Positions 29,151-41,987 of a DNA stretch of 64,000 bases are shown here, piece after piece (position 1 is the first letter of the stretch; each line of letters opens with the position of its first letter). Made by a program: the position numbers and the translations under genes. This stretch comes from a phage, in the sequence record PV357172.2; one strand, written 5' to 3'. The notes beneath the pieces were generated by a model. It did no database searches. It saw only the letters and a list, made by a program, of their open reading frames with translations, and had not been told where the DNA came from.

Positions 29151-29626
29151 GTACATTCCACGTTTACACAGATGGTGCTTGTAAGTCTAATCCGGGTTTA
29201 GGTGCTTGGGGATTTATTGTCTATGATGATAATGATGATCGTTTAGGTTCTAAATCTGGCTATAACCCTAAAACCACAAATAACGAGATGGAACTCACGG
29301 CTATTGTAGAGGCTCTTCGCTGGTCTGTTAAAAAAGATAATAGACCAATTGCTATCTATACTGATTCTGCTTATTGCAAAAATGGTATGGAAAGTTGGAT
29401 GTTTTCTTGGCAAAGGAAAGGCTGGAAGAAAGCAGATGGTGAAGTTCCTCTTAATCTAGAACTTTGGCAGGAAGCATTTAAATTAACACAGCAGTATATC
29501 AACTTTCATAATACTAATCCTACCTTTATTAAGGTTAAAGGACATTCTGGTATTAGTGGTAATGAAGCTGTAGACGCCTTATGTAATACAGTTATTACTG
29601 AAGCTGAAATGGCTGAGATGTTATAA
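29147..29626 (+). CDS. rnh: ribonuclease H
   Basis: RNase HI signature VYTDGACKSNPGLGAWGF...ELTAIVEAL...IYTDSAYC. Confidence 0.8.
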   Translation: MSTFHVYTDGACKSNPGLGAWGFIVYDDNDDRLGSKSGYNPKTTNNEMELTAIVEALRWSVKKDNRPIAIYTDSAYCKNGMESWMFSWQRKGWKKADGEVPLNLELWQEAFKLTQQYINFHNTNPTFIKVKGHSGISGNEAVDALCNTVITEAEMAEML

Positions 29627-29699
29627 ATAAATTAAAAATTTTCTTGCTTAAAGCCCTCTAATTTAGTATAATATTCGTATTGAAAGTGAGGAGGGCTTT

Positions 29700-29978
29700 A
29701 TGCGAATTTATAACTCAAATTCATTAGGATTTAAACCATTGAGAAAACGTGCACAATCACCTCGTCAAATAAGAAAGGCTAATATTGGTGAGCCAGAGAC
29801 ACGCCTTCCACCTCCTCCAGAACAACGTTTAGTTTATCTGGACGAAGAATTAGCTGAACGCGAAAGAAAAGCTCAAGAAGAGATTGAGCGTAAGAAAATG
29901 TGTACTGCTCCAGCGTATAATAAAGGGGCGTATCAATACGTCTCAGATGCCGAACAAGCTAAGATGGTTGGTAGATAA
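29700..29978 (+). CDS. hypothetical protein (92 aa)
   Basis: ORF track; GAGGAGGG RBS; promoter module upstream. Confidence 0.5.
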   Translation: MRIYNSNSLGFKPLRKRAQSPRQIRKANIGEPETRLPPPPEQRLVYLDEELAERERKAQEEIERKKMCTAPAYNKGAYQYVSDAEQAKMVGR

Positions 29979-29984
29979 TTTTTA

Positions 29985-30030
29985 AAAAATTCATTTGCTA
30001 AACGCTTCAAATTCTTGTATAATATACTTC
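29985..30030 (+). promoter_or_regulatory. sigma70-like strong early promoter
   Basis: TTGCTA at 29995-30000, 17-nt spacer, TGTATAAT at 30016-30023, A/T-rich upstream. Confidence 0.6.
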
Positions 30031-30061
30031 ATAAATTGATAAACAAAAAGGAAAACAAATA

Positions 30062-30577
30062 ATGGCTAAGCAGAAAAACGCAAAAACTCAAGCAGCTCCG
30101 GCAGTTAAAACTTTCCCGAAGACTGAGGCTAATCGCAAAGCTCGGCTGGAACGTCACCTGCGTAAGCATCCTACCGATGCTCAGGCTGCGCAAGCACTGA
30201 ATAATCCGGCTCCGATTCGTAAGAAGCCTAAAGCTAAAAATGCCACCCGTAAATCCTACAAAATGGTTATGTATGTAGAAAATTACGGCCACAAATCTGT
30301 CCCAGTTTCCCTGAGCTTCAACGCTGGAGCTGAATTGTTCTCTCGTAATGGTATGTCTATGAAAGACTATGAGAAGGCAGTTAACCAGAAGCGTAAACCA
30401 ACAGCAGATGTATTGCGTGATACTCGTGGACAGTTTGGTTCTGTTAAGCCAAATATCTTTGGCGTAGAGTATAGTAAAGATAATGTTCGTGCTCTGTGTT
30501 ACGGTGTAGGCATTAAGTTCACGGGTGATTCTGCTCGTAAATCTGCTAAACCAGCTCGTAAACGTAAAGCGAAGTAA
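30062..30577 (+). CDS. basic Lys/Arg/Ala-rich protein, possibly nucleic-acid binding
   Basis: 171-aa ORF; strong codon bias; basic termini. Confidence 0.5.
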   Translation: MAKQKNAKTQAAPAVKTFPKTEANRKARLERHLRKHPTDAQAAQALNNPAPIRKKPKAKNATRKSYKMVMYVENYGHKSVPVSLSFNAGAELFSRNGMSMKDYEKAVNQKRKPTADVLRDTRGQFGSVKPNIFGVEYSKDNVRALCYGVGIKFTGDSARKSAKPARKRKAK

Positions 30578-30641
30578 TAGATAAATAGGGGCAGAAGCCC
30601 CTACAATCTACTAATTCTCTAACTAATCAAGGATATTTTTT

Positions 30642-30857
30642 ATGTTCTCTAAGAAACCACGTTCCGTTACTGAAATCGTTGCTTCCTTTACCACTATCAC
30701 TGATGAGCTTCAAGCTCGTATTGAGGCTGATCAAAAAATTGCGGCGGATATTCAGAAACAGCAGGAAGAACTCGCTTTAAAGTTGGCTGAAACCAACAAG
30801 AGTGAAAAATCTGCCCAAACTATTATGGAAAATATTCTTAAACTGCTGGGCGAGTAA
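30642..30857 (+). CDS. hypothetical protein (71 aa)
   Basis: ORF track; flanked by GC hairpins. Confidence 0.45.
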   Translation: MFSKKPRSVTEIVASFTTITDELQARIEADQKIAADIQKQQEELALKLAETNKSEKSAQTIMENILKLLGE

Positions 30858-30899
30858 TTTAAGTTAGGGGGCGAAAGCCCCTCTTAGTTTGGAGAAACT

Positions 30900-31136
30900 A
30901 TGCGTAATTTTGTAGCAAAGAATGATTTTAACCGTGCTAGCACTCATAAGTCCGCTAGAGATTATACACGACTTTCTAGTCACGAGGTAATGGATACCTG
31001 TTATGAAGAGCTGGAAGGTAGCTGGGATGAATGGCCCGACTTCTCTATGGAAGAGAACTGGGATGTCAGTGAGGATATGCTTCCTGGTTTTAAAGACCCC
31101 AAGAAGTGGGAGTCTATTAAAGAGACAGCTCTTTAA
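30900..31136 (+). CDS. hypothetical protein (78 aa)
   Basis: ORF track; GGAGAAACT RBS. Confidence 0.45.
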   Translation: MRNFVAKNDFNRASTHKSARDYTRLSSHEVMDTCYEELEGSWDEWPDFSMEENWDVSEDMLPGFKDPKKWESIKETAL

Positions 31137-31164
31137 TAGTTTTCTACACAGTAAAGGATAAGTT

Positions 31165-31866
31165 ATGAAAGTAAAACCATTTGGTATGCTAGATATTGAA
31201 TCTCTAGGAACTCCAGGAGATTGTGGTACTACTCATATCGTAATGCCTTCTTTCGCTTTTGTGGCTATGCATGGGGTTGATAAAGACCCTGATCTAGTAT
31301 TTGTTACTTTGGATGTGCAGGATCAGCTTAATTCTGGTGCCAAAGTTACAGCATCTACTCTAGCATTCTGGATGGATCAAGCTAAAAATAGCCCGTCTGC
31401 TATCCACATTATGGAAGCTATGAAGGAACGTAATCCAAAACTGATTGCCTTCCAAAATGGTAAACATCATTGCACTAATAAATTAGGCTCAAACTATGCT
31501 GCCTTCTCTATGGCTCAAAATATTATGGAGTTGGCTCTAGGCGAAAATGCTTTGTATTATGGCAATGGCCCAGAGTTTGATATGACTATCTACTCTGCAA
31601 ATACGTTCCATGCTGGAACCAATGAAGAGGTAGTTCCGTGGAAATTCTGGAATTTGGGCAATGTTCGATCTCTTCGTAATCTCTGGATGCAAGCTGGATA
31701 CAGTTATAAGGCTCTAGAGACCGAAGGTATTAGCTGGGCAATAGCTAAAATGGAGAAGATGGACACTATTCGTTATGGGATATATCCGGTTAAGCACGAC
31801 CCAGCATTCGATGCCTTAGTTGAGAGCTATTGTGTTGCGGCTATGATCGAAAAAATGAAAATTTGA
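31165..31866 (+). CDS. putative DEDDh-family 3'-5' exonuclease
   Basis: Exo I-like MLDIESLG and Exo III-like HDPAFDALVESY motifs. Confidence 0.5.
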   Translation: MKVKPFGMLDIESLGTPGDCGTTHIVMPSFAFVAMHGVDKDPDLVFVTLDVQDQLNSGAKVTASTLAFWMDQAKNSPSAIHIMEAMKERNPKLIAFQNGKHHCTNKLGSNYAAFSMAQNIMELALGENALYYGNGPEFDMTIYSANTFHAGTNEEVVPWKFWNLGNVRSLRNLWMQAGYSYKALETEGISWAIAKMEKMDTIRYGIYPVKHDPAFDALVESYCVAAMIEKMKI

Positions 31867-31936
31867 TTTGCTTCCGGCTCCAAAATTCTGTATAATATAT
31901 TCATAAATTTGAGAAAACAATAAAAGGAAAACAAAT

Positions 31937-32119
31937 ATGCCAGTATCTAAAAATGTTCGTAAAAATGGTAAGAAAGCTACTCGTAATCTGGGTATCCGTC
32001 GTATGGCTGAACGTCAATCAGGTATCCAGAAAATCTTTGATCTGTTAAATCGTGCTAATCCTAAAATTGATAACAGTAAAGATACTGTTCTGCGTACCTT
32101 ACTGGCAATGGGTCTGTAA
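31937..32119 (+). CDS. small basic protein (60 aa)
   Basis: ORF track; promoter module and AAAAGGAAAACAAAT leader upstream. Confidence 0.45.
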   Translation: MPVSKNVRKNGKKATRNLGIRRMAERQSGIQKIFDLLNRANPKIDNSKDTVLRTLLAMGL

Positions 32120-32171
32120 TAGACCAACTTTAAACAAATTCAAATCTTAAACTTCATATAAGGAAGAAACA

Positions 32172-32810
32172 ATGACTACTCGTATTTCTAAAACTCGCGA
32201 TCTGGCAACTATCAAATCTCTGGAAGCTAAAATCCGTAAAGCTACTGAACAACAGCTTCTGATCGCTGTTGGTGAAGGTAAGGATAAAAATAAGGTTGTA
32301 GTTGGCGCTGCAATCGAAGTAGACGATCTGTCTGCTCGTATTAAGGCAGATTTCCAATCTCTCCTAGATATGATGTCCCAGCGTGATCGTATCAAAGCTG
32401 CTCTGATTAAGAGCAATGCGGAAACAGTAGTTGAGATTGGTTCTCGTAAAATGACTGTTGCAGAAGCAATTGAAGCTAAGCGTTCTATGGAGCTTAAAGC
32501 TCAGTTGCTGGCTAATATGCGTAAGCAGTTCCATGCCGCTACGGTTAAGTTTAATACGCAGAAAGCACAGTTTGATGCTAAATATGAGCGTTTGCAGGAT
32601 AGCATGGCTACCCGCGATAAGAAAACTTCCGAAGATGAAGTTAAAATGCAGCTCAACCTGCTGGAACTCAAGAATACTCCATTCTTGATTGATCCGCTGG
32701 AGCTGGAGAAGCTGATCAAGCAGCACGACGAAGAATATCAGGACTTTGCAACTAATGTTGACTTTGTTCTGTCTGAGTCTAATGCCTCTACTTTCATTGA
32801 AGTAGAGTAA
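32172..32810 (+). CDS. coiled-coil protein of unknown function (212 aa)
   Basis: ORF track; strong codon bias; heptad-like sequence. Confidence 0.5.
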   Translation: MTTRISKTRDLATIKSLEAKIRKATEQQLLIAVGEGKDKNKVVVGAAIEVDDLSARIKADFQSLLDMMSQRDRIKAALIKSNAETVVEIGSRKMTVAEAIEAKRSMELKAQLLANMRKQFHAATVKFNTQKAQFDAKYERLQDSMATRDKKTSEDEVKMQLNLLELKNTPFLIDPLELEKLIKQHDEEYQDFATNVDFVLSESNASTFIEVE

Positions 32811-33252
32811 TAATTTAAAAGCTAGTAAATCGGTAGACGAAAGCCCAAGCATCTTACCTCGCAGCAGCGGTTGAAATACGAGGTTAAATAAGACCGCTGA
32901 CCATACTATAAAGTATAATCTATTGGAGATTATGTTTATTACATCAGACATTTAATCTGACACGTAAAAACAAAGAGTCGTTGATATTACCGACACAACT
33001 TCAAAGATCAACATTTAAGTATGAAAGCTGAAAAGTTTAAAGAACTCAAACTTCTAAACTTCTAAAGCTAAAAGATGCAAAGTATTCGTTGATGATTCAA
33101 ACCCTAGATCAAAGGTACATGGCTCATAAGATATGGCCTGTGGCGCCTCTAGGCTGTTTATCGGTTTACTAGTTTCACAATTTAAAAATGTATTTGCTAA
33201 TCTACTAAATTATATGTATAATATATTTTTAAATTGATGAAACGAGGCTATT

Positions 33253-34074
33253 ATGGGTAAATTACAAAAACAAATACTACCACATATAGATTATATTCGA
33301 GAAATTATAGAGTATAATCCTTATACTGGTAAATTATTTTATAAGCCTAATAAATACAAGAATAAAACTTGGCACACCCTATATGCTGGGAGAGAAATAT
33401 GTAGTAAGAACTCTGATGGGTATATCAGAGTTAGTTTGCTCTTAGATAATAAACCCACAATTATTTATGGACACCGAATAGCGTGGTTGCTCCATTATGG
33501 TGAAGAGCCTCCTTATATGATCGACCATATAAATACCATACCGTGGGATAACAGAATTGTTAATCTAAGAGAGACAAATTTTAAGTTAAATAGGATTAAT
33601 ACTAATAAAACCGTAGGTGTAGAACTCCTCCCCGAGGGTTTTGTGTATAGCATTACATTAGGTGGAAAGTTTTTCGTATCTCCTGGCTTCACCACTTTCG
33701 AACAAGCTAAAGGGGAAAGAGAAAAACTAGTAAATGGTTTATGTAATGCAGAAATTGGGAAGCAGACCAATATTCTAATAGACGATGTTAGAGATCTACC
33801 TGAAATGTCCATTATTTGTCGTACAGTTATAGGTGCGCTGGAACTATCAGATATGTTTAGTTTTACTGGTTCCTACCTATTTATGGACTCAGATCTAGGA
33901 GACCCAGAAGTACAAGGAAAAGACTTATTAGATTATATACTCTTTTTAGGTCAAAGACCTTTGAAAGTAGTTCTAGTAACATCCAACCCTGTTGACGCAG
34001 AGTACATGAGAGGTACTCTTACGTCTTATGGTTATCGAGAAAATCCCAATAGGTTAGAATATGACCTATTTTAA
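33253..34074 (+). CDS. HNH endonuclease with C-terminal extension
   Basis: HNH motif YGHRIAWLLHYGEEPPYMIDHINTIPWDNRIVNL in N-terminal half. Confidence 0.65.
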   Translation: MGKLQKQILPHIDYIREIIEYNPYTGKLFYKPNKYKNKTWHTLYAGREICSKNSDGYIRVSLLLDNKPTIIYGHRIAWLLHYGEEPPYMIDHINTIPWDNRIVNLRETNFKLNRINTNKTVGVELLPEGFVYSITLGGKFFVSPGFTTFEQAKGEREKLVNGLCNAEIGKQTNILIDDVRDLPEMSIICRTVIGALELSDMFSFTGSYLFMDSDLGDPEVQGKDLLDYILFLGQRPLKVVLVTSNPVDAEYMRGTLTSYGYRENPNRLEYDLF

Positions 34075-34086
34075 GGAGTAAAAAGA

Positions 34087-34536
34087 ATGAAGGCAGCTTT
34101 GCTTTTAGTAGCTGCCCTTACCTTCAGCTTTAGTAGTCAGGCATCGCACGATGCAAAAGAAATAGATTGCATTGCTAAAAATATCTATTTTGAAAGTCGT
34201 GGTGAGGGCATAAATGGAATGATGGCGATTGCACATGTTACTAAAAACCGTGTAAACTCCGGTAAATTCCCAGATTCCTACTGTAAAGTAGTATATCAGT
34301 CTACCCAGTTCTCTTGGGTATCTAAGAGACCAAAAGTTGATAAAACGGATGAGGCTTGGCAAACCGCTAAGAATTTAGCTAGAGTGATATACTACGTTGA
34401 TTTACCACAAGATCCAACACATGGAGCACTATACTTCCATAGTGGTAAAGATAAACCTTACTGGACAAAGAAGTTTAAGAAAACAACGAAGATTCAAGGC
34501 CATACGTTCTACAAGCCTGCGGTCACTAAAACTTAA
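34087..34536 (+). CDS. secreted SleB-like cell wall hydrolase
   Basis: Signal peptide MKAALLLVAALTFSFSSQA; motif NIYFESRGEG...AIAHVTKNR typical of the SleB/Hydrolase_2 family. Confidence 0.55.
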   Translation: MKAALLLVAALTFSFSSQASHDAKEIDCIAKNIYFESRGEGINGMMAIAHVTKNRVNSGKFPDSYCKVVYQSTQFSWVSKRPKVDKTDEAWQTAKNLARVIYYVDLPQDPTHGALYFHSGKDKPYWTKKFKKTTKIQGHTFYKPAVTKT

Positions 34537-34605
34537 AAATTTATTTGCTTAAATACTTAAACTTCTGTATAATACTTTCATAAATTAATGAGAGGAAGCG
34601 AAATA

Positions 34606-34776
34606 TGAAGAACTTGATCGTCATTGGTGTTAACACTCGCGGTATTCGTACTACGAAAACTATTAAAACTTCTAACGTTGCTGAAATCACTACGAACCCT
34701 AAAAAGTTTGATTTCGCCAAAGTCTCAGCAGTTATGACGGAGCAATCTTTTAACCAAGCGTTAGGACTGAAATAAT
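34606..34776 (+). CDS. small protein (about 56 aa)
   Basis: Below track threshold; ATG at 34606 directly after promoter module and GAGAGGAAG RBS. Confidence 0.4.
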
Positions 34777-35218
34777 GGAAGAGAATATTTTAGATGTTTT
34801 GCGTAGAGCTTTGCAGGATTCTAAGTTTAATGGTTCTGATAAAGAAGTCGCTAAAAGCTATCAGACCATAATCGGGGATCTTCAGCGTATTGATAAAGAT
34901 TTCATCACTTCTGAACAATTTGTGTCTTATCTCAAAGCTCAACTAAAAAGCATTAACCAGATGAAAGCTAAACTTCATGGTCAAGATCTTGATAGTTATA
35001 GCTTGCAGTCCGCTCAGTATGAATACATTCTAAATAAGTGGTTGCAGGAGTATCTGCCTCCTCAGTTATCTGATACTGAGATTCGTAAATACTTTGCAGA
35101 ATTAGTTAAGCTAAACCCTGGAATTACAAAAGGTATGCTGATGAAAGCGATTAAGGAAGAATTTCCTGGGCGTTATGATGGTGGTACTGCTGCTCAGATT
35201 GCTGGCGAATTTAATTAA
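34775..35218 (+). CDS. hypothetical protein (147 aa)
   Basis: ORF track; ATGA start-stop overlap with preceding small ORF. Confidence 0.5.
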   Translation: MEENILDVLRRALQDSKFNGSDKEVAKSYQTIIGDLQRIDKDFITSEQFVSYLKAQLKSINQMKAKLHGQDLDSYSLQSAQYEYILNKWLQEYLPPQLSDTEIRKYFAELVKLNPGITKGMLMKAIKEEFPGRYDGGTAAQIAGEFN

Positions 35219-35478
35219 AAATTTACTTGCTAAATGCTTATAAATTCTGTATAATATATTCATAAATTAGGGAACAGCGAGCCGATTACGCTGAGTGCAG
35301 AATCCCAACCGGAGCGCATTGAATAGAGTCGGTGGGTTAGTTGTAAAACTAGTACACAGGGGGCGGCAATCCCGGTTAGTGGCTAGAACGTGTAAAATGA
35401 GGCGTCTGAAACCTCTCCCCTAAACTCTTCTCTAATTTATAAATAGTGGGGTGTGGAAATCACTTATGTAGTAACACT

Positions 35479-35550
35479 GCCGTCCTAGTATAATTGGTAT
35501 TATCAAGCCGTAACTGGTGGAAGATGTAGGTTCGAATCCTACGGTCGGTA
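35479..35550 (+). tRNA. tRNA-like element (possibly degenerate; anticodon not resolved)
   Basis: T-arm GTAGG-TTCGAAT-CCTAC and a 7-bp acceptor with one mismatch; anticodon stem does not fold cleanly. Confidence 0.3.
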
Positions 35551-36052
35551 AGAACTGGATAACTGATGCTTTTAACGTAAAAGCTTCCGAGGTTAGTTGC
35601 GCACTGCCTAAACCACGCGGTAGTTGGTTCCAGACTAACCAACCAGTCTGCTGAATAGTTTTATTACGATTTAACTATGCCCAGGCTAAAGAAGAACTTT
35701 AGAAGGTATTCTAGGATAGTGAAGTTCTTTCTCCATATCGGAGTAGTTTTTCAAGCTATCCACAAAGTGGGAAATGCTGACATGAGAGATGTCACTAATG
35801 GTGCACAATAGCACAGGTAATTCGCGATAACCCCTGTTGAGTAGCAGCAAAAGGCGGGAAGTCATGACCCCAAGCCTAACCGAGTCCTCAATATACCGCA
35901 GGACATAACCACTAAGTCCCCCTGACTTAAACTGGAAAATAATAGACGTTACTGTATTTTGTCTTGAAATACTTAATGAGTGAGACTTATGACTCTCCCG
36001 GTATCGTCTGTATTTTTAAGAGTTTTTACGAGAGTTCTTAAAAATACTTAAA

Positions 36053-36127
36053 CGGGGTGTAGTCTAAGGGAGAGGCAGGAGTCTTCTAAATTCCTTTATG
36101 CAGGTTCGAATCCTGTCACCTCGGCCA
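36053..36127 (+). tRNA. tRNA-Arg (anticodon TCT)
   Basis: Hand-folded cloverleaf: acceptor CGGGGTG/CACCTCG, anticodon loop CTTCTAA, T-arm GCAGG-TTCGAAT-CCTGT, encoded CCA. Confidence 0.65.
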
Positions 36128-36161
36128 ATTTTATTAACTGTAGCTAAAACAAAGGAAATAT

Positions 36162-37109
36162 ATGTTTAATACTAAAAATATGAAAGAACTGACTTCTGAG
36201 CAGAAAGTAATTCGTACTATTAAACGTTGGGGTATTGGTGCTGTAGTTGGTTTAGCAGGTTTAATCCTAGCTTTTAATTCATATACTGTTGTTCAAGACG
36301 GTACTGTTAAAACCCAGACTTTCCTGGGTAAAGTTGACCCTAGCCCAGTATTACCCGGCTTTCATATTGTAAATCCTTTTGCTTCTTTCGATACTTTTAG
36401 TACTAAAGATATTGCCCTAAAATTAGATAAACTTCAGGTTCCTAGCCAGGATAAGTTTAAATCCACTGTTGACCTGACTGTTATGTTGCAGTTTGATGGT
36501 TCTAAGGCACCAATTAACCGTATTAACGCAGGTACTCAGGATCAGGCGTTAGACAAGTATGTAACTGAAAAATTACTGTCTACTATTCGTGAGTTTGGTA
36601 AGTCTGTACCTAAAGCACAAGATTTGTTTGATGCTAAAATTCAGGCTCAATTGCAAACTGCAATTCAACAGGAAGTTGAAGAGTATGCACGCCCATATGG
36701 TTACACAGTTAAGCAGGTATTCCTTCAGGATATTACTTTGCCACCGGTAATCATGGAACAGGTACAGAATACCAAAGTTCGTGAAGAGCAAGTTAATGCT
36801 GCGAAAGCTGAACTGGCCCGCGTTGAACAAGAAGCGCAGCAAAAGGTTAAACAAGCAGAAGCAGACCGTGAAGCTCGCAACAACCAAGCTATTGCTAATG
36901 AACGTGACGCAGATGCTAAACTGTACGCAGCTAAGAAAGAAGCTGAAGCTAACGCCGCATTGCAACGTACCATTACTCCTGAGATGATTCGCTGGAAGCA
37001 ACTGGAAGTTGAAATGCTTCGTGCTGAAAAATACCAAGGTGGTGTACCGCAAACAGTAGTGGGAACTGGTTACGATGGCCAGATGATCATGGATATGCGT
37101 AATAAGTAA
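36162..37109 (+). CDS. SPFH/band-7 (prohibitin/HflK-like) membrane protein
   Basis: N-terminal TM segment, SPFH-like core, Ala/Glu/Gln-rich coiled-coil tail. Confidence 0.55.
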   Translation: MFNTKNMKELTSEQKVIRTIKRWGIGAVVGLAGLILAFNSYTVVQDGTVKTQTFLGKVDPSPVLPGFHIVNPFASFDTFSTKDIALKLDKLQVPSQDKFKSTVDLTVMLQFDGSKAPINRINAGTQDQALDKYVTEKLLSTIREFGKSVPKAQDLFDAKIQAQLQTAIQQEVEEYARPYGYTVKQVFLQDITLPPVIMEQVQNTKVREEQVNAAKAELARVEQEAQQKVKQAEADREARNNQAIANERDADAKLYAAKKEAEANAALQRTITPEMIRWKQLEVEMLRAEKYQGGVPQTVVGTGYDGQMIMDMRNK

Positions 37110-37145
37110 TATCCGCATGTAATCTCTGAAGTAAGCCCTGTGTTC

Positions 37146-37175
37146 CCTGGAGAGCGCAGGGCTTTTCTGTATTTA
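37146..37175 (+). terminator. rho-independent terminator
   Basis: Hairpin CCCTG-GAGAGCG-CAGGG followed by CTTTTCTGTATTT. Confidence 0.55.
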
Positions 37176-37299
37176 AGGCAAAAGAAAAAGCCCATAAGTT
37201 ATTCAACTAAGGTCTTTAGTATTTAATTCTTTAGAATCATATAATATTATTGCAGCAACAACGTGCTAACCTTAAGTGCCCTGCAATTTTCCTCTAAAA

Positions 37300-37350
37300 A
37301 GTTAAAAAATTCGATTGCTTGAATGCTAAATTCTCTGTATAATATATTTA
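37300..37350 (+). promoter_or_regulatory. sigma70-like strong early promoter
   Basis: TTGCTT at 37315-37320, 17-nt spacer, TGTATAAT ending at 37343. Confidence 0.6.
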
Positions 37351-37373
37351 TAAATTTGAGAGAGGAATCAAAT

Positions 37374-38429
37374 ATGATTAAGACTGGTCTAGTAATTGGT
37401 AAGTTCGCACCATTAACGCGTGGTCATATTAACCTAATAAACACAGCAGCAACTATGTGTGAACGAGTTATTGTTGTAGTTAGTCATGATAATCGTTGGC
37501 TGGATAAGCAGAACACACGTGATCAGGAAGTATTACAGTTAAAGAATCGACTTCGTTGGTTAGAACAAACTTACGCGGATATTGAGCACATTTCGGTAGA
37601 GTACATTATTGAAGATGATATTCCTGAATATCCGAATGGTTGGCCGGAATATGCTAGAATCCTTAATGAAAATTACGGACATTTGCCTGAGATCACCGTT
37701 TTCTCTAGCGAACTAGACTATGATGCAGAATATAAGAAATATCTGCCGAAGTTTGGTCATTATATTGTAGATTCTGATCGGACTCGTGTTCCAATCTCAG
37801 CTACAATGATTCGTAATGATCTTATGAAGTATTGGGAGTTTCTTCCTAGCTTAGTTCGTAAAGATTACGTGCGTAAGGTTGTAATCATTGGGACTGAAAG
37901 CTCGGGAAAGACTACTTTAACAAAATACCTTGCGAAGCTATACAACACTTCGTGGGTAGAAGAATATGGCCGAACGTATTGTGAAGTTGATCTAGTTGGT
38001 AACGAAAATCTACTTACCAGTGAAGATTACAGTAAAATTGCGTTCAGACACAAAGAGCTAGAGTTTGAAGCAGAACGTACTGCAAATAAGATCATGTTTG
38101 TGGATACAAATGCTTTTATTACTGAGTTCTACCACAGACTTTATGAACATAGTAAGAACCCTGTGGTTACAGCAATTGCAAAAGTAGAACATTACGATTT
38201 AGTAATTGTTCTAGCGCCTACTGTCAAGTGGGTAGATGATGATTTACGTATTAACTCCGATCGTTCAATTACTTCTGAACTGTTCGAGCAGATGAAGAAA
38301 GAATTTCCAAATCAGTTCCCTGAAGGGCGTACTGTTTACATCGACTCTCCGGACTACAAAGTTCGTATGGACGAAGCAGTAAACGCAGTAGACTGGCTGA
38401 TTCATCACTTTAACGTTGGAGAGTTTTAA
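37374..38429 (+). CDS. NadR-like bifunctional NMN adenylyltransferase / ribosylnicotinamide kinase
   Basis: N-terminal nucleotidyltransferase motif GKFAPLTRGHINLI; C-terminal P-loop IIGTESSGKTTL. Confidence 0.65.
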   Translation: MIKTGLVIGKFAPLTRGHINLINTAATMCERVIVVVSHDNRWLDKQNTRDQEVLQLKNRLRWLEQTYADIEHISVEYIIEDDIPEYPNGWPEYARILNENYGHLPEITVFSSELDYDAEYKKYLPKFGHYIVDSDRTRVPISATMIRNDLMKYWEFLPSLVRKDYVRKVVIIGTESSGKTTLTKYLAKLYNTSWVEEYGRTYCEVDLVGNENLLTSEDYSKIAFRHKELEFEAERTANKIMFVDTNAFITEFYHRLYEHSKNPVVTAIAKVEHYDLVIVLAPTVKWVDDDLRINSDRSITSELFEQMKKEFPNQFPEGRTVYIDSPDYKVRMDEAVNAVDWLIHHFNVGEF

Positions 38430-38430
38430 T

Positions 38431-39108
38431 ATGACTAACTATCTCGTAAATGACTTTAAAAACTGGAAACCTCTGGAATATCTGTGGCTGCTCATAGCGG
38501 TTGTCTTCATTAGTTTAGCAAACTATAATGGTACAGCTCTAGATTGGGCTACTGCAATAACCAATGTGGTTTGTGTTATTCTGGTTGCAAAAGGACGTGT
38601 TTCCAACTATATTTGGGGCTTAGTGGGTGTTCTTACATATGGTATTACAGCTTTAAACGCAGATCTTTATGGTAACGCTGCACTAAACCTGCTATACTAC
38701 GTTCCTATGCAGTTTTATGGAATGTACTTATGGCATAAAAATAAACCAAGTAATCTGCCAGACGTTCCAACTAAGGTTCTGACTAAAGCTCAGGCTTTAT
38801 TAACTCTTGGGATTCTAGCAGTAGCTACTCTAGGCTATGGCAGCTTCCTCGCTACCACAGCAGATCCGTTCCCAATGCTCGATGCATTTACTGCGGTTGG
38901 TAGTGTAATTGCTATGTGGCTTATGGTCAAGCAGTATGCTGAACAATGGCTAATCTGGATTGCCATTAATATTGGTACTGTATACATTTGGTTTGTAACT
39001 GCTCAGTCTACAGGTGCTTCTTATGCAATCCTAGCAATGTGGCTGGTATTCTTTGGTAACTCTGTACTTGGAGCCTATAAAGGGTACTTTGTACGCGTTA
39101 ACAAATAA
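38431..39108 (+). CDS. PnuC-like nicotinamide riboside transporter
   Basis: Multi-TM protein immediately downstream of NadR-like gene; ATG at 38431 after GGAGAG. Confidence 0.55.
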   Translation: MTNYLVNDFKNWKPLEYLWLLIAVVFISLANYNGTALDWATAITNVVCVILVAKGRVSNYIWGLVGVLTYGITALNADLYGNAALNLLYYVPMQFYGMYLWHKNKPSNLPDVPTKVLTKAQALLTLGILAVATLGYGSFLATTADPFPMLDAFTAVGSVIAMWLMVKQYAEQWLIWIAINIGTVYIWFVTAQSTGASYAILAMWLVFFGNSVLGAYKGYFVRVNK

Positions 39109-39116
39109 AATAGTTA

Positions 39117-39150
39117 TAGCCCTCAAAGCGAGGGCTATTATCCAGAAAAT
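39117..39150 (+). terminator. rho-independent terminator (weak U-tract)
   Basis: Hairpin AGCCCTC-AAAGC-GAGGGCT followed by ATTATCC. Confidence 0.4.
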
Positions 39151-39151
39151 T

Positions 39152-39192
39152 TCACTTGCTAAATGCCGAGATTTTCTGTATAATATATTTAT
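39152..39192 (+). promoter_or_regulatory. sigma70-like promoter driving tRNA transcription
   Basis: TTGCTA at 39156-39161, 17-nt spacer, TGTATAAT ending at 39184; tRNA-Ser begins about 15 nt downstream. Confidence 0.6.
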
Positions 39193-39198
39193 AAATTC

Positions 39199-39290
39199 GG
39201 AAGATTAACCCTAATTGGTAAGGGAGCATCTTGCTAAGTTGCCAGTAGCTGTGGAAACACGGTGTATCGGTTCAAGTCCGATATCTTCCT
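39199..39290 (+). tRNA. tRNA-Ser (anticodon GCT), long variable arm
   Basis: Perfect acceptor GGAAGAT/ATCTTCC, anticodon loop TTGCTAA, variable-arm hairpin, T-arm ATCGG-TTCAAGT-CCGAT, encoded CCA. Confidence 0.7.
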
Positions 39291-39298
39291 CCAAATTT

Positions 39299-39373
39299 GG
39301 TTCTCAAGCTCATTTGGTATGAGCCGTCGCCTCATAAGCGAAAGGTAGGTAGGTTCGAATCCTCCGGGAGCCA
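39299..39373 (+). tRNA. tRNA with CAT anticodon (Met or Ile2)
   Basis: Acceptor GGTTCTC/GGGAGCC with G-U pairs, D-stem GCTC/GAGC, anticodon loop CTCATAA, T-loop TTCGAAT, encoded CCA. Confidence 0.65.
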
Positions 39374-39393
39374 CCAGATAACTAGGAGACTTT

Positions 39394-39582
39394 ATGTCAC
39401 GCTTTCACGAAATTAAGCAAGAACTGGAAGAACTCGCCTGTCCTGAATGCTTTGGGACAGGTGAATGGAATGATGCTGAACCCGGGGATACGCGGTTTAA
39501 CACTTACGTTTGCACTCACTGTGAAGGTACTGGTGTAAACCCTCTTTACACTATTTCTCTTTTTGTAGGGGTTGCTAAATAA
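39394..39582 (+). CDS. small zinc-ribbon protein (62 aa)
   Basis: CPECFGTGEW...CTHCEGTG DnaJ-like Cys motifs. Confidence 0.45.
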   Translation: MSRFHEIKQELEELACPECFGTGEWNDAEPGDTRFNTYVCTHCEGTGVNPLYTISLFVGVAK

Positions 39583-39588
39583 TGCACT

Positions 39589-39936
39589 TTGAAGATGATG
39601 AAAAAAGAAGCGTTCTACACTGTCCCAGCAATTAATCTGCTCGGTACTGTACTATTTCAGATTAAGTTCTACCTGCGAGACGACTACACTGAAGTGGTAA
39701 ACGCTATTGTACCTGAGTTCTTCGTAAATAATTTCCAAAAGGACTTTAAGTTCTTTATTGATGATGTTTACGATGGTGTGGTTGATCCGGCAGTAGCTCC
39801 AGCTATATACAATGTATTTAATTCTCTGCCAGATCTAGATTTTGATCTAGGACTTATTGAGTCTGGTGAGATTATCTGGGCACTTAATGTTCCAGTGACT
39901 GGATTCCCTGGTTGGCTGCAAGGTTACGAACTCTAA
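39589..39936 (+). CDS. hypothetical protein (115 aa)
   Basis: ORF track. Confidence 0.45.
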   Translation: MKMMKKEAFYTVPAINLLGTVLFQIKFYLRDDYTEVVNAIVPEFFVNNFQKDFKFFIDDVYDGVVDPAVAPAIYNVFNSLPDLDFDLGLIESGEIIWALNVPVTGFPGWLQGYEL

Positions 39937-39944
39937 CAAAATTT

Positions 39945-40027
39945 GGATCTGTGGTGGAATTGGCAATACACACCATGCTTAAAACGTGGCGCTTAAATGA
40001 TTGAGGGTTCGAGCCCCTCCAGATCCA
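39945..40027 (+). tRNA. tRNA-Leu (anticodon TAA), long variable arm
   Basis: Perfect acceptor GGATCTG/CAGATCC, anticodon arm CCATG-CTTAAAA-CGTGG, T-arm GAGGG-TTCGAGC-CCCTC, encoded CCA. Confidence 0.7.
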
Positions 40028-40182
40028 CCAAATTAAGGAAGTAAAAATGAAATCTATTAAGAAAGCACTGCGTAAATTTATGTATTGTCGTTTTCATAGC
40101 ATCAAGGCTTCAACTAATGGTACTACTTACGATCGCTATGATCCTAAGTTTGGCTTACATTCTAAATAACTGGAGAAAACAA

Positions 40183-40389
40183 ATGGCTAATCCTGAAATT
40201 ACGGCACAACGCTTTATGCTGAAAGGAATTATTGCTGAAGCAGGCATGACAGAAGAAGTTGCAGATTTTCAAAAGCAATTCCTCAATATTCTCACTCAAG
40301 CCAAAGAGCTAGGAGAGAAAGAACATGGCGCGGCTATTATGGCAATCACATTGGTTGGGCTTGATCTGGCTGAAGAATCAGGAGTTTAA
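40183..40389 (+). CDS. hypothetical protein (about 68 aa)
   Basis: ATG at 40183 after GGAGAAAACAA; track ORF starts upstream. Confidence 0.45.
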   Translation: MANPEITAQRFMLKGIIAEAGMTEEVADFQKQFLNILTQAKELGEKEHGAAIMAITLVGLDLAEESGV

Positions 40390-40478
40390 CTCCTCCAAGC
40401 AGAAATTTTAAAAATGTACTTGCTTTTTACTTAAGATTTCTGCTATAATAGTTATATAAGTTGATGAGAGGAATCAGA

Positions 40479-40754
40479 ATGTTAAAACGTTTTGCAGCAA
40501 CTGGTATTGAAAGCTCAGTATGTAAATCCTGGGGTGGTTGGGAAGGTGAGATCGAGTGGCTTTATTTCTACAATGTAGAACTTCTTCCAGAGATCAAAGC
40601 TCAATGTATTGAGGCTGGTATGGCTCCTGATGCTACGGCTGATGTTGAAATCAGCATGAATAAGCTAGAGGGTCGAGTAGTCACTGTTACTGATGAAGGT
40701 GAAGAGGTATTCGAACTTCCATTCACTTTGAAAGTCACTCCTTCATTTGATTAA
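40479..40754 (+). CDS. hypothetical protein (about 91 aa)
   Basis: ATG at 40479 after promoter module and GAGAGG. Confidence 0.5.
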   Translation: MLKRFAATGIESSVCKSWGGWEGEIEWLYFYNVELLPEIKAQCIEAGMAPDATADVEISMNKLEGRVVTVTDEGEEVFELPFTLKVTPSFD

Positions 40755-40882
40755 CTGATACAGCACTGAGCAAGTTCTTTAAAATTTGACTTGCTCAGTA
40801 CCTTAAAACTTGGTATAATAGTTATCTAATTTGGAAACATATTTAAAAGTATTCAAATACTAGTTTAAACACTTTTAAATGT

Positions 40883-40966
40883 ACATCGTTGGCAGAATGG
40901 CTATTGTAGCGGTCTGTAAATCCGTGCCCTTCGGGATTGGTGGTTCGAATCTTACACGGCCCGCCA
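40883..40966 (+). tRNA. tRNA-Tyr-like element (GTA anticodon loop), possibly degenerate
   Basis: D-arm and anticodon arm (loop CTGTAAA) fold, variable-arm hairpin GCCC-TTC-GGG, TTCGAAT T-loop, CCA present; T-stem and acceptor pair poorly in my reading. Confidence 0.3.
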
Positions 40967-41068
40967 AATTCTGTGTAGAGTTAAGTAAACCGGTAGCCAA
41001 CCAGCTATCATTGCTGACATCGAATTCAGCCACAGATACCATTTTCATTAATAACTGAGGAAATAGAT

Positions 41069-41254
41069 ATGACAACTCGTGCAATTGCTCGACTAGAAGC
41101 TGATCGTGATAATCTGATTAATAATATTAAGGTTCGTGGTAATATTATTAAGGCTCTGAAAGCTGAACTTCTTGAAGAACTTCAAGGTCAAGTAGAGCGT
41201 CGTGAAGCTCTAAAAGAGGTTGAGGAAGCTATCGAAAAACTCAAAGCTGAGTAA
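41069..41254 (+). CDS. small coiled-coil protein (61 aa)
   Basis: ORF track; GAGGAAATAGAT RBS. Confidence 0.45.
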   Translation: MTTRAIARLEADRDNLINNIKVRGNIIKALKAELLEELQGQVERREALKEVEEAIEKLKAE

Positions 41255-41257
41255 ATT

Positions 41258-41839
41258 ATGCACGGAATATCCTTACCAATTCCAGGGTTTGAGGAGTACT
41301 TAGTAAGTTTGGATGGGTTAGTATTTAGTATCAAATCAAACAAAATACTAACCCCAATAACCAGTAATTACGGATACTTATCTATACGTCTCCATAAAAA
41401 TGGTCAACAGAGAAATACCGGTGTACATAGGATTTTAGCATGTGCATTTAAGAAATTACCAAGTCTAGACTCTGAACTAGAAGTTGACCATATTAACACA
41501 GACATTACTTATTGGGGTCTTAATAACTTACAAGTGCTCACAAAAGAGCAGCATCTAGAAAAGACTTTAAAAGATAAAGGATTTAGTAAACTAAACCATG
41601 ATAATTGTTGTAAGGATTGTGGTAAAGCTATTTCTTTAAAAGCTGAAAAATGTCAGGAGTGCTCTTCACATAAACCAAAAGATATCTCTATAACTAAAGA
41701 AATAATCGAGGTTACAGTAAGAGAGCTAGGCTGGTCAGGTGCAGGGAGAAAGTTAAGTTATTCAGATAATGGGTTGCGTAAAAGATACACTTCTTTAGGA
41801 GGCAATCCTAAAGAACTTAAAAAGTTAAAGGTACTATAG
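41258..41839 (+). CDS. HNH endonuclease with zinc finger and C-terminal HTH
   Basis: HNH region ELEVDHINTDITYWGLNNLQVLTKEQH; CKDCG...CQEC zinc finger; paralog of 43929-44513. Confidence 0.65.
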   Translation: MHGISLPIPGFEEYLVSLDGLVFSIKSNKILTPITSNYGYLSIRLHKNGQQRNTGVHRILACAFKKLPSLDSELEVDHINTDITYWGLNNLQVLTKEQHLEKTLKDKGFSKLNHDNCCKDCGKAISLKAEKCQECSSHKPKDISITKEIIEVTVRELGWSGAGRKLSYSDNGLRKRYTSLGGNPKELKKLKVL

Positions 41840-41901: not shown

Positions 41902-41910
41902 CCAAATTAT

Positions 41911-41984: not shown

Positions 41985-41987
41985 CCA

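What the first reader, a model, noticed from the sequence alone, without database searches (positions are those of the whole stretch)
35270..36050. About 780 nt of promoter-driven noncoding sequence with a degenerate tRNA-like element
A strong promoter at about 35222-35260 fires into a segment without any credible ORF. It contains one tRNA-like element whose anticodon stem does not fold, plus GC-rich hairpins, before the tRNA-Arg gene. Transcribed noncoding sequence of this length in a compact phage genome suggests small RNAs or tRNA-derived regulatory fragments.
Basis: seen in the sequence. Interest (0 to 1): 0.5.

Follow-up and report, generated by a model that had tools for sequence, protein, structure and literature searches.

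The report
T5-type RNAX structured noncoding RNA
This stretch is the counterpart of phage T5's annotated but unstudied 'RNAX': a roughly 790-base non-coding RNA made from an early promoter. Comparison with relatives shows it folds into a conserved, modular structure with a tRNA-shaped side arm, and its job is still unknown.

Summary
The window is a T5-like phage (Tequintavirus). Positions 35262-36052 (+) are the orthologue of T5 'rnaX', annotated in NC_005859 as a 'stable RNA with unknown functions' driven by promoter 'P 16-17' and abutting tRNA-Arg(UCU).

The ORFs inside are not coding. They show no third-position bias and carry frameshifts or stops in relatives.

The tRNA-like element (35479-35550) scores 35.5 bits on the Rfam tRNA model. 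It has a 3-4-bp arm with a 6-nt loop where the anticodon arm should be. It lacks the 3'-CCA that all 19 genuine tRNAs of the window encode.

It is not a decaying pseudogene. It sits on top of a 12-bp helix inside a closed 171-nt domain with strong covariation (98.5% of cells paired, against 26-42% in slid controls). In some relatives a plain hairpin replaces it.

The 3' domain also keeps its helices, invariant loops and a 38-nt AU-rich terminal hairpin.

One copy per genome was found in members of at least five named Demerecviridae genera, always upstream of tRNA-Arg. Nothing similar turned up in E. coli genomes, and Rfam gave only the tRNA match.

So this is one large modular structured RNA, not a set of tRNA fragments. 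Its existence is already known. Its structure and function are undescribed. The closest analogues are GOLLD and ROOL, but it is not a member of either.

The parts
35227..35255 (+). Sigma-70 early promoter, the orthologue of T5 'P 16-17': -35 TTGCTA at 35227-32 and -10 TATAAT at 35250-55. The transcription start is inferred at about 35262.
   Evidence: Consensus scan gives 10/12. Homologous to the annotated T5 promoter and similar to 8 other annotated T5 promoters. Conserved in all clades examined.
35262..36052 (+). The whole RNAX non-coding RNA gene (about 790 nt here, 719 nt as annotated in T5).
   Evidence: T5 misc_RNA rnaX, 'stable RNA with unknown functions'. 91-98% identical to T5 over 35423-36160. 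339 phage records cover at least 80% of the query. Not coding.
35262..35440 (+). Variable 5' leader. The terminal stem P0 (35262-35274 with 35428-35440) encloses a 149-nt insert (35274-35422) that T5 lacks. Hairpin CAGCG-AGCCGAUUA-CGCUG lies at 35275-35293.
   Evidence: MFE fold. The T5 gap. The leader start and hairpin are conserved in Tequinta-, Epseptima- and Sugarlandvirus and in phiR2-01. Leader length is 35-486 nt, with an HNH ORF inside it in some phages.
35446..35616 (+). Closed 5' domain. P1 is 35446-49 with 35613-16. P2 (12 bp) is 35459-72 with 35554-67. P3 hairpin is 35568-72 with 35580-84. There is a variable hairpin at about 35592-35608. Invariant joints are GGUGUSGAA, AACACUG and AAGA.
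   Evidence: 22 distinct sequences: 98.5% of cells paired against 26-42% when partners are slid; 18 of 30 pairs have changes on both sides against 0-4; 0 of 500 shuffles reach this. Model R1 finds one copy per genome.
35479..35550 (+). Nested tRNA-like module on top of P2. It has an acceptor-like stem (G.U at 1-72, U.U at 5-68), a D arm with GG, and a perfect T arm GUAGG-UUCGAAU-CCUAC. In place of the anticodon arm is a 3-4-bp stem with the 6-nt loop GUAACU. There is no 3'-CCA.
   Evidence: Rfam tRNA 35.5 bits with an 18-nt insertion for the anticodon arm. No ARAGORN call. All 19 real tRNAs encode CCA, whereas this element is followed by AGAACU. The short arm covaries by eye (GCC/GGU, GGC/GCC, ACC/GGU).
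35623..35650 (+). Candidate H-type pseudoknot in the linker. Stem GUUGGUU (35623-29) pairs with AACCAAC (35637-43). Loop CAGAC (35631-35) pairs with GUCUG (35646-50).
   Evidence: Read from the sequence. One compensatory change in L087 (GUUGAUU/AAUCAAC) and an A-to-G change giving G.U in L092/L080. Weak evidence; not tested formally.
35738..35883 (+). Body of the 3' domain. The closing helix is 35738-41 with 35880-83. Hairpins are 35760-63/35767-70, 35778-83/35789-94 and 35801-04/35811-14.
   Evidence: RNAalifold and pair counts on 15 sequences: 97.1% paired against 28-43% slid; 10 pairs with changes on both sides against 1-5.
35852..35877 (+). Hairpin presenting the invariant loop (A)AGUCAUGA (35859-67), which holds the palindrome UCAUGA/GUCAUGAC (35861-68). 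Stems are 35852-55/35874-77 and 35856-58/35868-70.
   Evidence: The loop is invariant in every clade, including Proteus phage Stubb, while the closing pairs covary (GGG/CCC, GGG/CCU, AGG/CCU, UGG/CCA; AGGC/GCCU against AGAC/GUCU).
35884..35937 (+). Hairpin 35884-89/35898-904; AUAACCAC (35905-12); invariant hairpin AGUC(A/C)-CCY-UGACU (35914-19/35923-28); UAAACUGGAA (35928-37).
   Evidence: T5 carries a duplicated copy of this motif.
35944..36009 (+). Terminal three-way-junction module: an outer stem AGACG.../...CGUCU and two inner hairpins separated by CUUAAU.
   Evidence: Three versions that share little beyond CUUAAU (window, S114 and L092 types) fold on their own into the same architecture. 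The modules are exchanged between otherwise near-identical phages (L084, L075).
36010..36047 (+). AU-rich 17-bp hairpin with a UACG loop. It is the 3'-terminal structure of RNAX, 5 nt before tRNA-Arg.
   Evidence: About 90% identical from Tequintavirus to Myunavirus. One copy per genome. It contains G.U pairs, and its only changes are G.U to A-U or C-G and U-A to C-G. That fits an RNA hairpin on the + strand.
36053..36127 (+). tRNA-Arg(UCU), co-transcribed with RNAX. Its 5' maturation would set the RNAX 3' end.
   Evidence: ARAGORN and Rfam, 49.3 bits. RNAX lies upstream of tRNA-Arg(tct) in every relative examined.

Best explanation
Positions 35262-36052 encode the orthologue of phage T5 RNAX. 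It is one large non-coding RNA (about 790 nt here) transcribed early from a strong sigma-70 promoter, in one unit with tRNA-Arg(UCU) and the SPFH-protein gene.

Shown here:
- It is not translated.
- It folds into a conserved multi-domain structure. This comprises a closed four-way-junction 5' domain, a 3' domain with invariant loops, a terminal three-way junction and an AU-rich hairpin.
- The scaffold is constant while peripheral modules are exchanged between phages.
- One such module is an L-shaped tRNA mimic that cannot decode. It has a 6-nt loop on a short stem, and no CCA.

Inferred from standard bacterial tRNA processing and RNA decay:
- RNase P cleavage at the 5' end of tRNA-Arg releases RNAX.
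- Both ends are locked in helices (P0 and the AU hairpin), which would explain why T5's annotators call it 'stable'.

Most likely mode of action, by inference only: a trans-acting structural RNA of early infection that works through its invariant loops and junctions. It could act as an RNP, or as an RNA-RNA assembly in the manner of the large 'ornate' phage RNAs GOLLD and ROOL. The tRNA-like arm would be an optional handle for tRNA-binding factors or a folding and processing aid. RNAX would not be a source of tRNA fragments.
For: Identity with T5 rnaX and its promoter.

Non-coding.

Covariation. 5' domain: 98.5% paired against 26-42% slid, 18 of 30 pairs with double changes, 0 of 500 shuffles reach this. 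3' domain: 97.1% against 28-43%. Proteus phage Stubb, which was not in the model, adds further compensatory changes in P1 and P2.

Strand: G.U pairs in P2 and in the AU hairpin exist only in the + strand RNA.

Modularity: the tRNA-like arm comes in at least four forms and is replaced by a plain hairpin in L024, L025, L100 and Stubb. Three unrelated versions of the terminal module share one fold.

Copy number and linkage: one copy per genome, and always upstream of tRNA-Arg(UCU).

Not a real tRNA: no CCA against 19 of 19 real tRNAs with CCA.

Transcription unit: no + strand terminator before 37133-37164, which matches T5's annotated terminator.
Against: No expression or end-mapping data were available. 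'Stable RNA' rests on a GenBank note whose primary data I could not find.

Minimum-free-energy z-scores are unremarkable (-1.2 on both strands, -0.5 for the leader).

The middle linker (35617-35737) is poorly aligned, and its structure is not established.

The function is not shown by anything here.

The order of domains differs in Proteus phage Stubb, so 'one rigid architecture' is an over-simplification.

The strict linkage to tRNA-Arg could mean a cis role instead.
Confidence: 0.7

Rival explanations
1. tRNA-mimic decoy. RNAX exists to display a tRNA-shaped arm. That arm would soak up or distract a host factor that binds tRNAs: an anticodon nuclease or other tRNA-targeting defence, RNase P, the CCA-adding enzyme, or modification enzymes. 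This would protect phage translation, in line with the counter-defence roles shown for T5 tRNA-Lys and tRNA-Tyr.
For: The elbow-forming parts are conserved in most clades: D-loop GG, T loop UUCGAAU and the acceptor stack. The element lies in the T5 tRNA region, where tRNA-Lys neutralises PARIS and tRNA-Tyr counters retron Eco7 (PMC11464382). The upstream gene has a weak YqeY-type match, a family with a tRNA-binding tail (25.4 bits, below the cut-off of 27).
Against: The tRNA-like arm is dispensable in nature. A simple hairpin replaces it in several viable Epseptimavirus isolates and in Proteus phage Stubb, while the scaffold stays. The 'anticodon' arm is the least conserved part and resembles no normal anticodon loop, so a decoy for anticodon nucleases is unlikely. 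Most of the conserved sequence lies outside the tRNA-like arm.
Confidence: 0.12
2. Cis-acting leader only. RNAX is a long structured 5' leader or spacer whose sole role is to control the synthesis, folding or processing of the downstream tRNA-Arg(UCU) and the SPFH mRNA. After cleavage it is waste.
For: It is invariably linked to tRNA-Arg(UCU) in members of at least five named genera, while the rest of the tRNA region is reshuffled. It belongs to the same transcription unit.
Against: A processing signal does not need 600-900 nt with invariant loops, a closed four-way junction and conserved module architecture. HNH genes or small ORFs of 300-550 nt sit between RNAX and tRNA-Arg in many phages without loss of RNAX. 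The RNAX motifs do not covary with the tRNA-Arg sequence: tRNA-Arg of L032 (My1-like) and of Stubb starts GCGCCC while RNAX keeps GGGGUGU or GGGUGUGU. T5's annotators list it as a stable RNA.
Confidence: 0.13
3. Debris. The region is a graveyard of decayed tRNA genes and homing-endonuclease scars that is transcribed only because it lies behind a promoter.
For: A tRNA-like element with a defective anticodon arm is present. HNH insertions and module swaps are frequent here.
Against: Helices outside the tRNA-like part are kept by compensatory changes. Several motifs are invariant across genera. The flanks of the tRNA-like element are more conserved than the element itself. None of the relatives examined has lost the region.
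Confidence: 0.03
4. A DNA-level element or small protein genes. The conserved palindromes would be protein-binding or replication/recombination sites in DNA, or the short ORFs that some records annotate would be real genes.
For: GTCATGAC and the AU-rich inverted repeat are palindromic in DNA too. Several GenBank records annotate 'hypothetical proteins' here.
Against: G.U pairs and their G.U to A-U or C-G exchanges make sense only in the + strand RNA. The ORFs lack third-position bias, and most are broken by a frameshift or stop in relatives. T5 lacks the segment that holds the 42-aa ORF.
Confidence: 0.02

Closest known systems
Phage T5 'rnaX' (T5s08; NC_005859 40848..41566, misc_RNA 'RNAX, stable RNA with unknown functions') with promoter 'P 16-17'
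   Same: Same locus, same neighbours (YqeY-like gene upstream; tRNA-Arg and SPFH gene downstream) and same promoter. 91-98% identity over 35423-36160.
   Different: The window copy has a 149-nt stem-enclosed insert in the leader (35274-35422) that T5 lacks. T5 has an insert of about 82 nt that duplicates the AGUCACCUUGAC-UAAACUGGAA motif. In T5 the acceptor stem is perfect at pair 5-68, and ARAGORN calls the element 'tRNA-Ser(act)'.
GOLLD and ROOL large 'ornate' RNAs of phages and prophages
   Same: All are phage-encoded, several hundred nucleotides long, non-coding and multi-helix, with conserved junctions. All lie next to tRNA genes. GOLLD sometimes has tRNAs in its linker region, and the function of GOLLD and ROOL is unknown (bioRxiv 10.1101/2024.12.08.627333). 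RNAX likewise nests a tRNA-shaped module and sits at the head of a tRNA region.
   Different: There is no match to any Rfam family except tRNA, even at E up to 10. The sequences and helices are unrelated. The nested element here is a non-decoding mimic attached through its acceptor end. Homo-oligomeric cages are proven for GOLLD and ROOL and untested here.
MALAT1 mascRNA-type tRNA-like elements in long non-coding RNAs (from my own knowledge)
   Same: In both, a tRNA-shaped element with a non-functional anticodon arm is embedded in a long non-coding transcript, where tRNA-processing enzymes can act as maturation signals.
   Different: Those are eukaryotic and sit at the 3' end of the transcript. 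Here the module is internal, its acceptor stem continues into a conserved 12-bp helix, and it is optional. Cleavage is untested.
Bacterial Y-RNA-like YrlA and tmRNA (tRNA-like domains in larger RNAs; from my own knowledge)
   Same: All contain acceptor, T-arm and D-arm mimicry without a decoding anticodon arm.
   Different: In YrlA and tmRNA the rest of the RNA replaces the anticodon arm. In RNAX the rest of the RNA is attached at the acceptor end. ARAGORN reports no tmRNA, and Rfam reports neither family.
Small stable RNAs of phage tRNA clusters (T5 RNAI, RNAIII, RNAIV, RNA1-3, RNA2H; T4 species 1 and 2, the T4 pair from my own knowledge)
   Same: All are co-transcribed with phage tRNAs and released by tRNA processing. 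Their function is unknown, and some are tRNA-like.
   Different: Those RNAs are 70-170 nt long. RNAX is five to ten times longer and multi-domain.

Membership tests
T5 RNAX (rnaX) locus | Sequence homology to the T5 misc_RNA rnaX | tested here: met
   Window 35423-35937 is 91% identical and 35915-36160 is 98% identical to T5. The feature table of NC_005859 lists rnaX.
T5 RNAX (rnaX) locus | Synteny: promoter P 16-17 upstream, tRNA-Arg immediately downstream, between the T5.081-like and T5.080-like genes | tested here: met
T5 RNAX (rnaX) locus | Accumulates as a stable RNA in infected cells | not testable with these tools
No paper was found.
tRNA (Rfam tRNA family), for element 35479-35550 | Covariance-model score above the gathering threshold | tested here: met
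   35.5 bits against a threshold of 29.
tRNA (Rfam tRNA family), for element 35479-35550 | 5-bp anticodon stem with a 7-nt loop that presents an anticodon | tested here: not met
   The model skips the arm as an 18-nt insertion. The best pairing is 3-4 bp with the 6-nt loop GUAACU. Other phages have UUCACC, GUAAAU or a long extended arm. ARAGORN makes no call in the window.
tRNA (Rfam tRNA family), for element 35479-35550 | 3'-CCA encoded, as in every genuine tRNA gene of this phage | tested here: not met
   All 19 tRNAs end in CCA. This element is followed by AGAACU, a conserved joint of the larger fold.
GOLLD / ROOL | Match to the family covariance model | tested here: not met
   No hit at E up to 1 over 33000-48000, and none at E up to 10 over 35200-36160.
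GOLLD / ROOL | Large structured non-coding RNA of phages, located at tRNA islands | tested here: met
.
GOLLD / ROOL | Homo-oligomeric RNA-only cage | not testable with these tools
   The only hint is an invariant hairpin loop that contains a palindrome.
tmRNA | tRNA-like domain formed by the 5' and 3' ends, plus a tag reading frame | tested here: not met
   ARAGORN reports no tmRNA. Rfam gives no hit.

The most novel reading that the evidence does not exclude
RNAX is a new class of large 'ornate' phage RNA that works as an assembly. The invariant hairpin loop AGUCAUGA, which holds the palindrome UCAUGA/GUCAUGAC, would mediate kissing-loop self-association. This would give an RNA-only or RNA-protein particle comparable to ROOL and GOLLD cages, possibly including the neighbouring YqeY-like protein. 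The particle would display tRNA-shaped arms and act on the tRNA or translation machinery early in infection. Because T5 and E. coli are fully tractable, this would make the unknown function of large phage RNAs at tRNA islands directly testable.
Probability: 0.15. Interest if true: 0.8.

Novelty: already known. Interest (0 to 1): 0.5.

Why it matters
The existence of this RNA is on record only as a one-line annotation in the T5 genome. I found no paper and no Rfam family for it.

The analysis here shows that it is a conserved, covarying, modular RNA of 600-900 nt. It is present once per genome across Demerecviridae, it is always tied to tRNA-Arg(UCU), and its tRNA mimic is an exchangeable part.

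Large structured phage RNAs next to tRNA genes (GOLLD, ROOL) are a recognised open problem: their structures are solved but their functions are not. An analogous RNA in one of the best-studied E. coli phages would allow genetics, pull-downs and cryo-EM in a standard system.

There is also a practical point for annotation. Many GenBank records call spurious 'hypothetical proteins', 'tRNA-OTHER', 'tRNA-Sec', 'tRNA-Ser' or 'tRNA-Gln' in this region.

Tried and rejected
- Rfam at permissive thresholds: only tRNA hits. The other matches (Hrs13, snoRNAs, a miRNA) are noise far below their thresholds.
- tmRNA or permuted tmRNA, suggested by the 5' GGGGUGU: ARAGORN finds none.
- A resemblance by eye of GGGAAGUCAUG and ACAGGUAAUUCGCG to RNase P RNA conserved regions: Rfam gives no RNase P hit, so I dropped it.
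- Pairing of GGUGU with ACACU around the 5' strand of P2: there is no compensatory change (L088 has GGUGC with the partner unchanged), and it is sterically incompatible with the well-supported P2.
- Thermodynamic stability as evidence: z-scores of -1.2 on both strands are uninformative.
- Paralogues within the genome, or distant homologues next to YqeY-like genes in metagenomic viral contigs: none found with model R1.
- Host origin or mimicry: no blastn match in 5,426 E. coli genomes, and no match of a 3'-motif pattern in 185,579 species genomes.
- A functional link between the RNAX 'GGGGUGU' motif and the identical 5' acceptor strand of tRNA-Arg: rejected, because tRNA-Arg of L032 (My1-like) and of Stubb differs while the RNAX motif stays.
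- Literature searches for RNAX or T5 stable RNAs: nothing relevant.
- The YqeY neighbour as a partner: only a sub-threshold, partial Pfam match, and the gene is absent upstream of RNAX in Sugarlandvirus. I keep it only as a lead.
Full report
WHAT THE WINDOW IS. The query region is 99.5% identical to Salmonella phage VSe12 and to many other Tequintavirus genomes. 579 phage records match it, and 339 of them cover at least 80% of the query. The window is therefore a T5-like phage (Demerecviridae). ARAGORN finds 19 tRNA genes on the + strand, the first being tRNA-Arg(tct) at 36053-36127.

- A sigma-70 promoter (TTGCTA, 17 nt, TATAAT; 35227-35255) is the best consensus match in 34500-37500.
- The number of promoter-like sites in that region is not above chance. 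The case for this site rests on homology. It aligns with the promoter that the T5 reference genome annotates as 'P 16-17'. The same 60 nt also resemble eight other annotated T5 promoters.
- Between this promoter and tRNA-Arg there are only ORFs of 25-60 aa. They show no excess of third-position substitutions. Five of the six are broken by a frameshift or stop in at least one homologue. The two flanking genes show the expected pattern (79/30/238 and 353/126/1992) and are always intact.
- Rfam's tRNA model matches 35479-35550 at 35.5 bits, above its threshold of 29, but treats the entire anticodon arm as an insertion. ARAGORN does not call the element.

IT IS ALREADY ANNOTATED IN T5. NC_005859 lists misc_RNA 'rnaX' (T5s08, 40848..41566) as 'stable RNA with unknown functions'. 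It starts inside promoter P 16-17 and ends one base before tRNA-Arg. The window is 91-98% identical to it from 35423 onwards. T5 lacks window 35274-35422. I found no paper on RNAX in the library and no Rfam family other than tRNA. Existence is therefore known, and nothing else is.

THE 5' DOMAIN IS A REAL STRUCTURE.
- The sequences on either side of the tRNA-like element are more conserved across genera than the element itself.
- I aligned 22 distinct sequences from Tequintavirus, Epseptimavirus, Sugarlandvirus, Myunavirus and Yersinia phage phiR2-01. RNAalifold predicts the following helices. P1 is 35446-49 with 35613-16 and closes the domain. P2 has 12 bp, 35459-72 with 35554-67. The acceptor-like stem and T arm of the tRNA-like element stack on P2. 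Hairpin P3 (35568-72 with 35580-84) abuts P2. Of 31 predicted pairs, 18 have compensatory changes.
- Counting on the named structure gives 98.5% of cells paired, against 26-42% when partners are slid by 1-3 columns. 18 pairs have changes on both sides, against 0-4 in the slid controls. No shuffle of 500 reaches the observed values.
- U.G pairs in P2 exist only on the + strand.
- A covariance model of this domain finds exactly one copy per genome. Its other hits are ordinary tRNAs.
- The model also recovers the domain in genomes that were not used to build it: Enterobacter phage KKP_3711 (198 bits), Salmonella phage 1-29 (117 bits) and Proteus phage Stubb of the genus Novosibvirus (74.7 bits, E 1e-18). 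These add new compensatory changes in P1 and P2.

THE tRNA-LIKE ELEMENT IS AN ACCESSORY MODULE.
- In the window it has an acceptor-like stem with G.U and U.U, a D arm with the GG needed for the elbow, and a canonical T arm. Where the anticodon arm should be there is a 3-4-bp stem with the loop GUAACU.
- That short stem covaries (GCC/GGU, GGC/GCC, ACC/GGU).
- All 19 genuine tRNAs of the window encode CCA. This element is followed by AGAACU, which is part of the invariant AAGA joint to P2.
- Other phages carry a long extended arm instead (L063, L066, L076, L080, L082, L090, L091), with GGGG/CCCC against GGAGAU/AUCUCC. Others have different 6-nt loops (L087, L088). One metagenomic copy has a D-arm deletion (L086). 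phiR2-01 and My1 carry forms that ARAGORN calls tRNA-Ser(cga) or tRNA-Leu(tag) although they also lack CCA.
- In Epseptimavirus isolates L024, L025 and L100, and in Proteus phage Stubb, the module is replaced by a plain hairpin between the same conserved flanks. Rfam sees no tRNA there.
- The conserved entity is therefore the scaffold. The tRNA shape is optional.

THE REST OF THE RNA.
- From the start of the 5' domain to the terminal hairpin, 46 distinct sequences measure 594-896 nt.
- For the 3' domain I aligned 15 sequences of the Tequintavirus and Epseptimavirus types. 97.1% of cells are paired, against 28-43% slid. Ten pairs have changes on both sides, against 1-5.
- A hairpin at 35852-35877 presents the loop (A)AGUCAUGA. 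The loop is invariant in every clade, including Stubb, while its closing pairs covary.
- AUAACCAC, the hairpin AGUCA-CCY-UGACU and UAAACUGGAA are nearly invariant.
- The last module before the terminal hairpin exists in at least three versions that share little beyond CUUAAU. Each folds on its own into the same three-way junction, with CUUAAU between the inner hairpins. These versions are swapped between otherwise near-identical phages.
- The 38-nt AU-rich hairpin at 36010-36047 has a 17-bp stem and a UACG loop. It is about 90% identical from Tequintavirus to Myunavirus and occurs once per genome. Its only changes are G.U to A-U or C-G and U-A to C-G exchanges. That pattern fits an RNA hairpin on the + strand.
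- The 5' leader is variable, at 35-486 nt. It begins with a conserved stretch and hairpin (35275-35293) and holds an HNH endonuclease gene in some phages. In the window and in T5 its first 11-13 nt pair with the last nucleotides before the 5' domain.

WHAT I COULD NOT ESTABLISH.
- Minimum-free-energy z-scores are ordinary.
- The linker 35617-35737 aligns poorly. A pseudoknot at 35623-35650 is only a candidate.
- In Proteus phage Stubb the AGUCAUGAC motif lies upstream of the 5' domain, so the order of domains is not fixed.
- No expression data were available.

MECHANISM.
- Shown: a non-coding, single-copy, conserved and covarying modular RNA on the + strand, behind an early promoter. It lies in one unit with tRNA-Arg(UCU) and the SPFH gene, up to the terminator at 37133-37164.
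- Inferred from standard bacterial RNA processing: RNase P cleavage at the 5' end of tRNA-Arg sets the RNAX 3' end five bases after the AU hairpin. Helices at both ends would protect the RNA, which fits the label 'stable'.
- Inferred with low confidence: RNAX acts in trans through its invariant loops and junctions, as an RNP or an RNA assembly.
- The palindromic invariant loop is what a kissing-loop dimer would require. However, the chance of a 6-nt palindrome in a fixed 8-nt loop is about 5%, so this is a lead and not a result.
- Rivals:
  - A tRNA-mimic decoy is weakened by the natural loss of the tRNA-like arm.
  - A purely cis-acting leader of tRNA-Arg fits the strict linkage. It does not fit the size, the invariant loops, or the genes that many phages carry between RNAX and tRNA-Arg.
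  - Debris, DNA sites or small proteins are contradicted by covariation, G.U pairs and the codon-position test.

COMPARISON WITH KNOWN SYSTEMS.
- As a locus this is T5 rnaX, and its membership features are met.
- As a kind of RNA it works most like GOLLD and ROOL. Those are large structured phage RNAs at tRNA islands. GOLLD sometimes has tRNAs in its linker, and the function of both is unknown. RNAX is not a member of either, because no covariance-model match exists.
- The tRNA-like arm passes the Rfam tRNA score but fails two defining features of a working tRNA of this phage: the anticodon arm and the encoded CCA.
- It differs from tmRNA and YrlA in being joined to the rest of the RNA through its acceptor end.

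DISTRIBUTION. RNAX was found in Tequintavirus, Epseptimavirus, Sugarlandvirus, Myunavirus, Pectobacterium phage DU_PP_V, Novosibvirus and an unassigned Markadamsvirinae phage. It is always upstream of tRNA-Arg(UCU). It was not found in E. coli genomes or, by pattern, in a collection of one genome per prokaryotic species. The published viable T5 deletions in the tRNA region (delta 30661-38625 and delta 29191-32442; PMC11464382) stop short of rnaX, so its dispensability is untested.

VERDICT. The finding is a real feature, correctly spotted. It is already on record as T5 RNAX, so its existence is not new. The structure-level description given here is new to the extent that the library and Rfam could be searched. 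That description covers the closed 5' domain, the optional tRNA mimic, the invariant palindromic loop, the modular 3' end and the family-wide linkage to tRNA-Arg. It makes this a well-defined, testable unknown in a model phage.

Noticed in passing
window 44606-44696 and 45545-45618 (+): Two further tRNA-like elements that ARAGORN does not call. They match the Rfam tRNA-Sec model at 37.6 and 23.3 bits, both below its threshold of 47. T5 annotates 'tRNA-like stable RNAs' RNA1, RNA2 and RNA3 in its tRNA region, so these may be their counterparts.
   Followed up: no
L089 663-1145, L092 663-1145, L022 leader; L100 3409-3918, L087 1636-2145, L088 1626-2135: Extra ORFs are polymorphic around RNAX in relatives. 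One site is in the leader directly behind the promoter, where the ORFs are annotated as HNH or homing endonucleases. The other is between the AU-rich hairpin and tRNA-Arg, where they are annotated only as hypothetical proteins. Module swaps inside RNAX between near-identical phages (L084, L075) suggest recombination that such endonucleases could drive.
   Followed up: partly
L002 (T5) 12986-13051 region, minus strand: T5 carries an insert of about 82 nt in the RNAX 3' domain that duplicates the motif AGUCACCUUGAC-UAAACUGGAA. It lacks the 149-nt leader insert present in the window (35274-35422).
   Followed up: partly
window 36053-36059 vs 35448-35454; L003 1857-1874 vs window 36098-36115: The RNAX joint GGGGUGU is identical to positions 2-8 of the adjacent tRNA-Arg. 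The T arm of the tRNA-like module in phage S114 is 18/18 identical to the T arm of tRNA-Arg. This hints that parts of RNAX arose from a tRNA-Arg duplication. The two do not covary in L032 (My1-like) or Stubb.
   Followed up: partly
many GenBank records of T5-like phages: The RNAX region is variously annotated as 'hypothetical protein' (up to four ORFs), 'tRNA-OTHER', 'tRNA-Sec', 'tRNA-Ser', 'tRNA-Gln' or 'tRNA-Pseudo'. The upstream YqeY-like gene is annotated as 'recombination related exonuclease' or 'tRNA amidotransferase'. The annotation is inconsistent and probably wrong in many records.
   Followed up: no
MG065692.1 (Campylobacter phage C13) and OR848534.1 (Listeria phage LM 4-14-1): Records labelled as Campylobacter or Listeria phages carry T5-like sequence at 92-98% identity. 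The host labels look doubtful, and contamination or mislabelling is possible.
   Followed up: no
window 33253-34074 (+): A 273-aa ORF. VSe12, the closest relative, annotates nothing across the corresponding gap (L001 1123-1564). By eye the ORF contains an HNH-like stretch (IDHINTIPWDNRIVNLR), so it may be another mobile endonuclease insertion.
   Followed up: no
window 37323-39108 (+): Downstream of the terminator lie a 368-aa ORF and a 230-aa membrane ORF. Homologues of the first are annotated as NadR-type nicotinamide-nucleotide adenylyltransferase. Together they look like an NAD salvage pair (NadR plus a PnuC-like transporter) at the head of the tRNA region.
   Followed up: no
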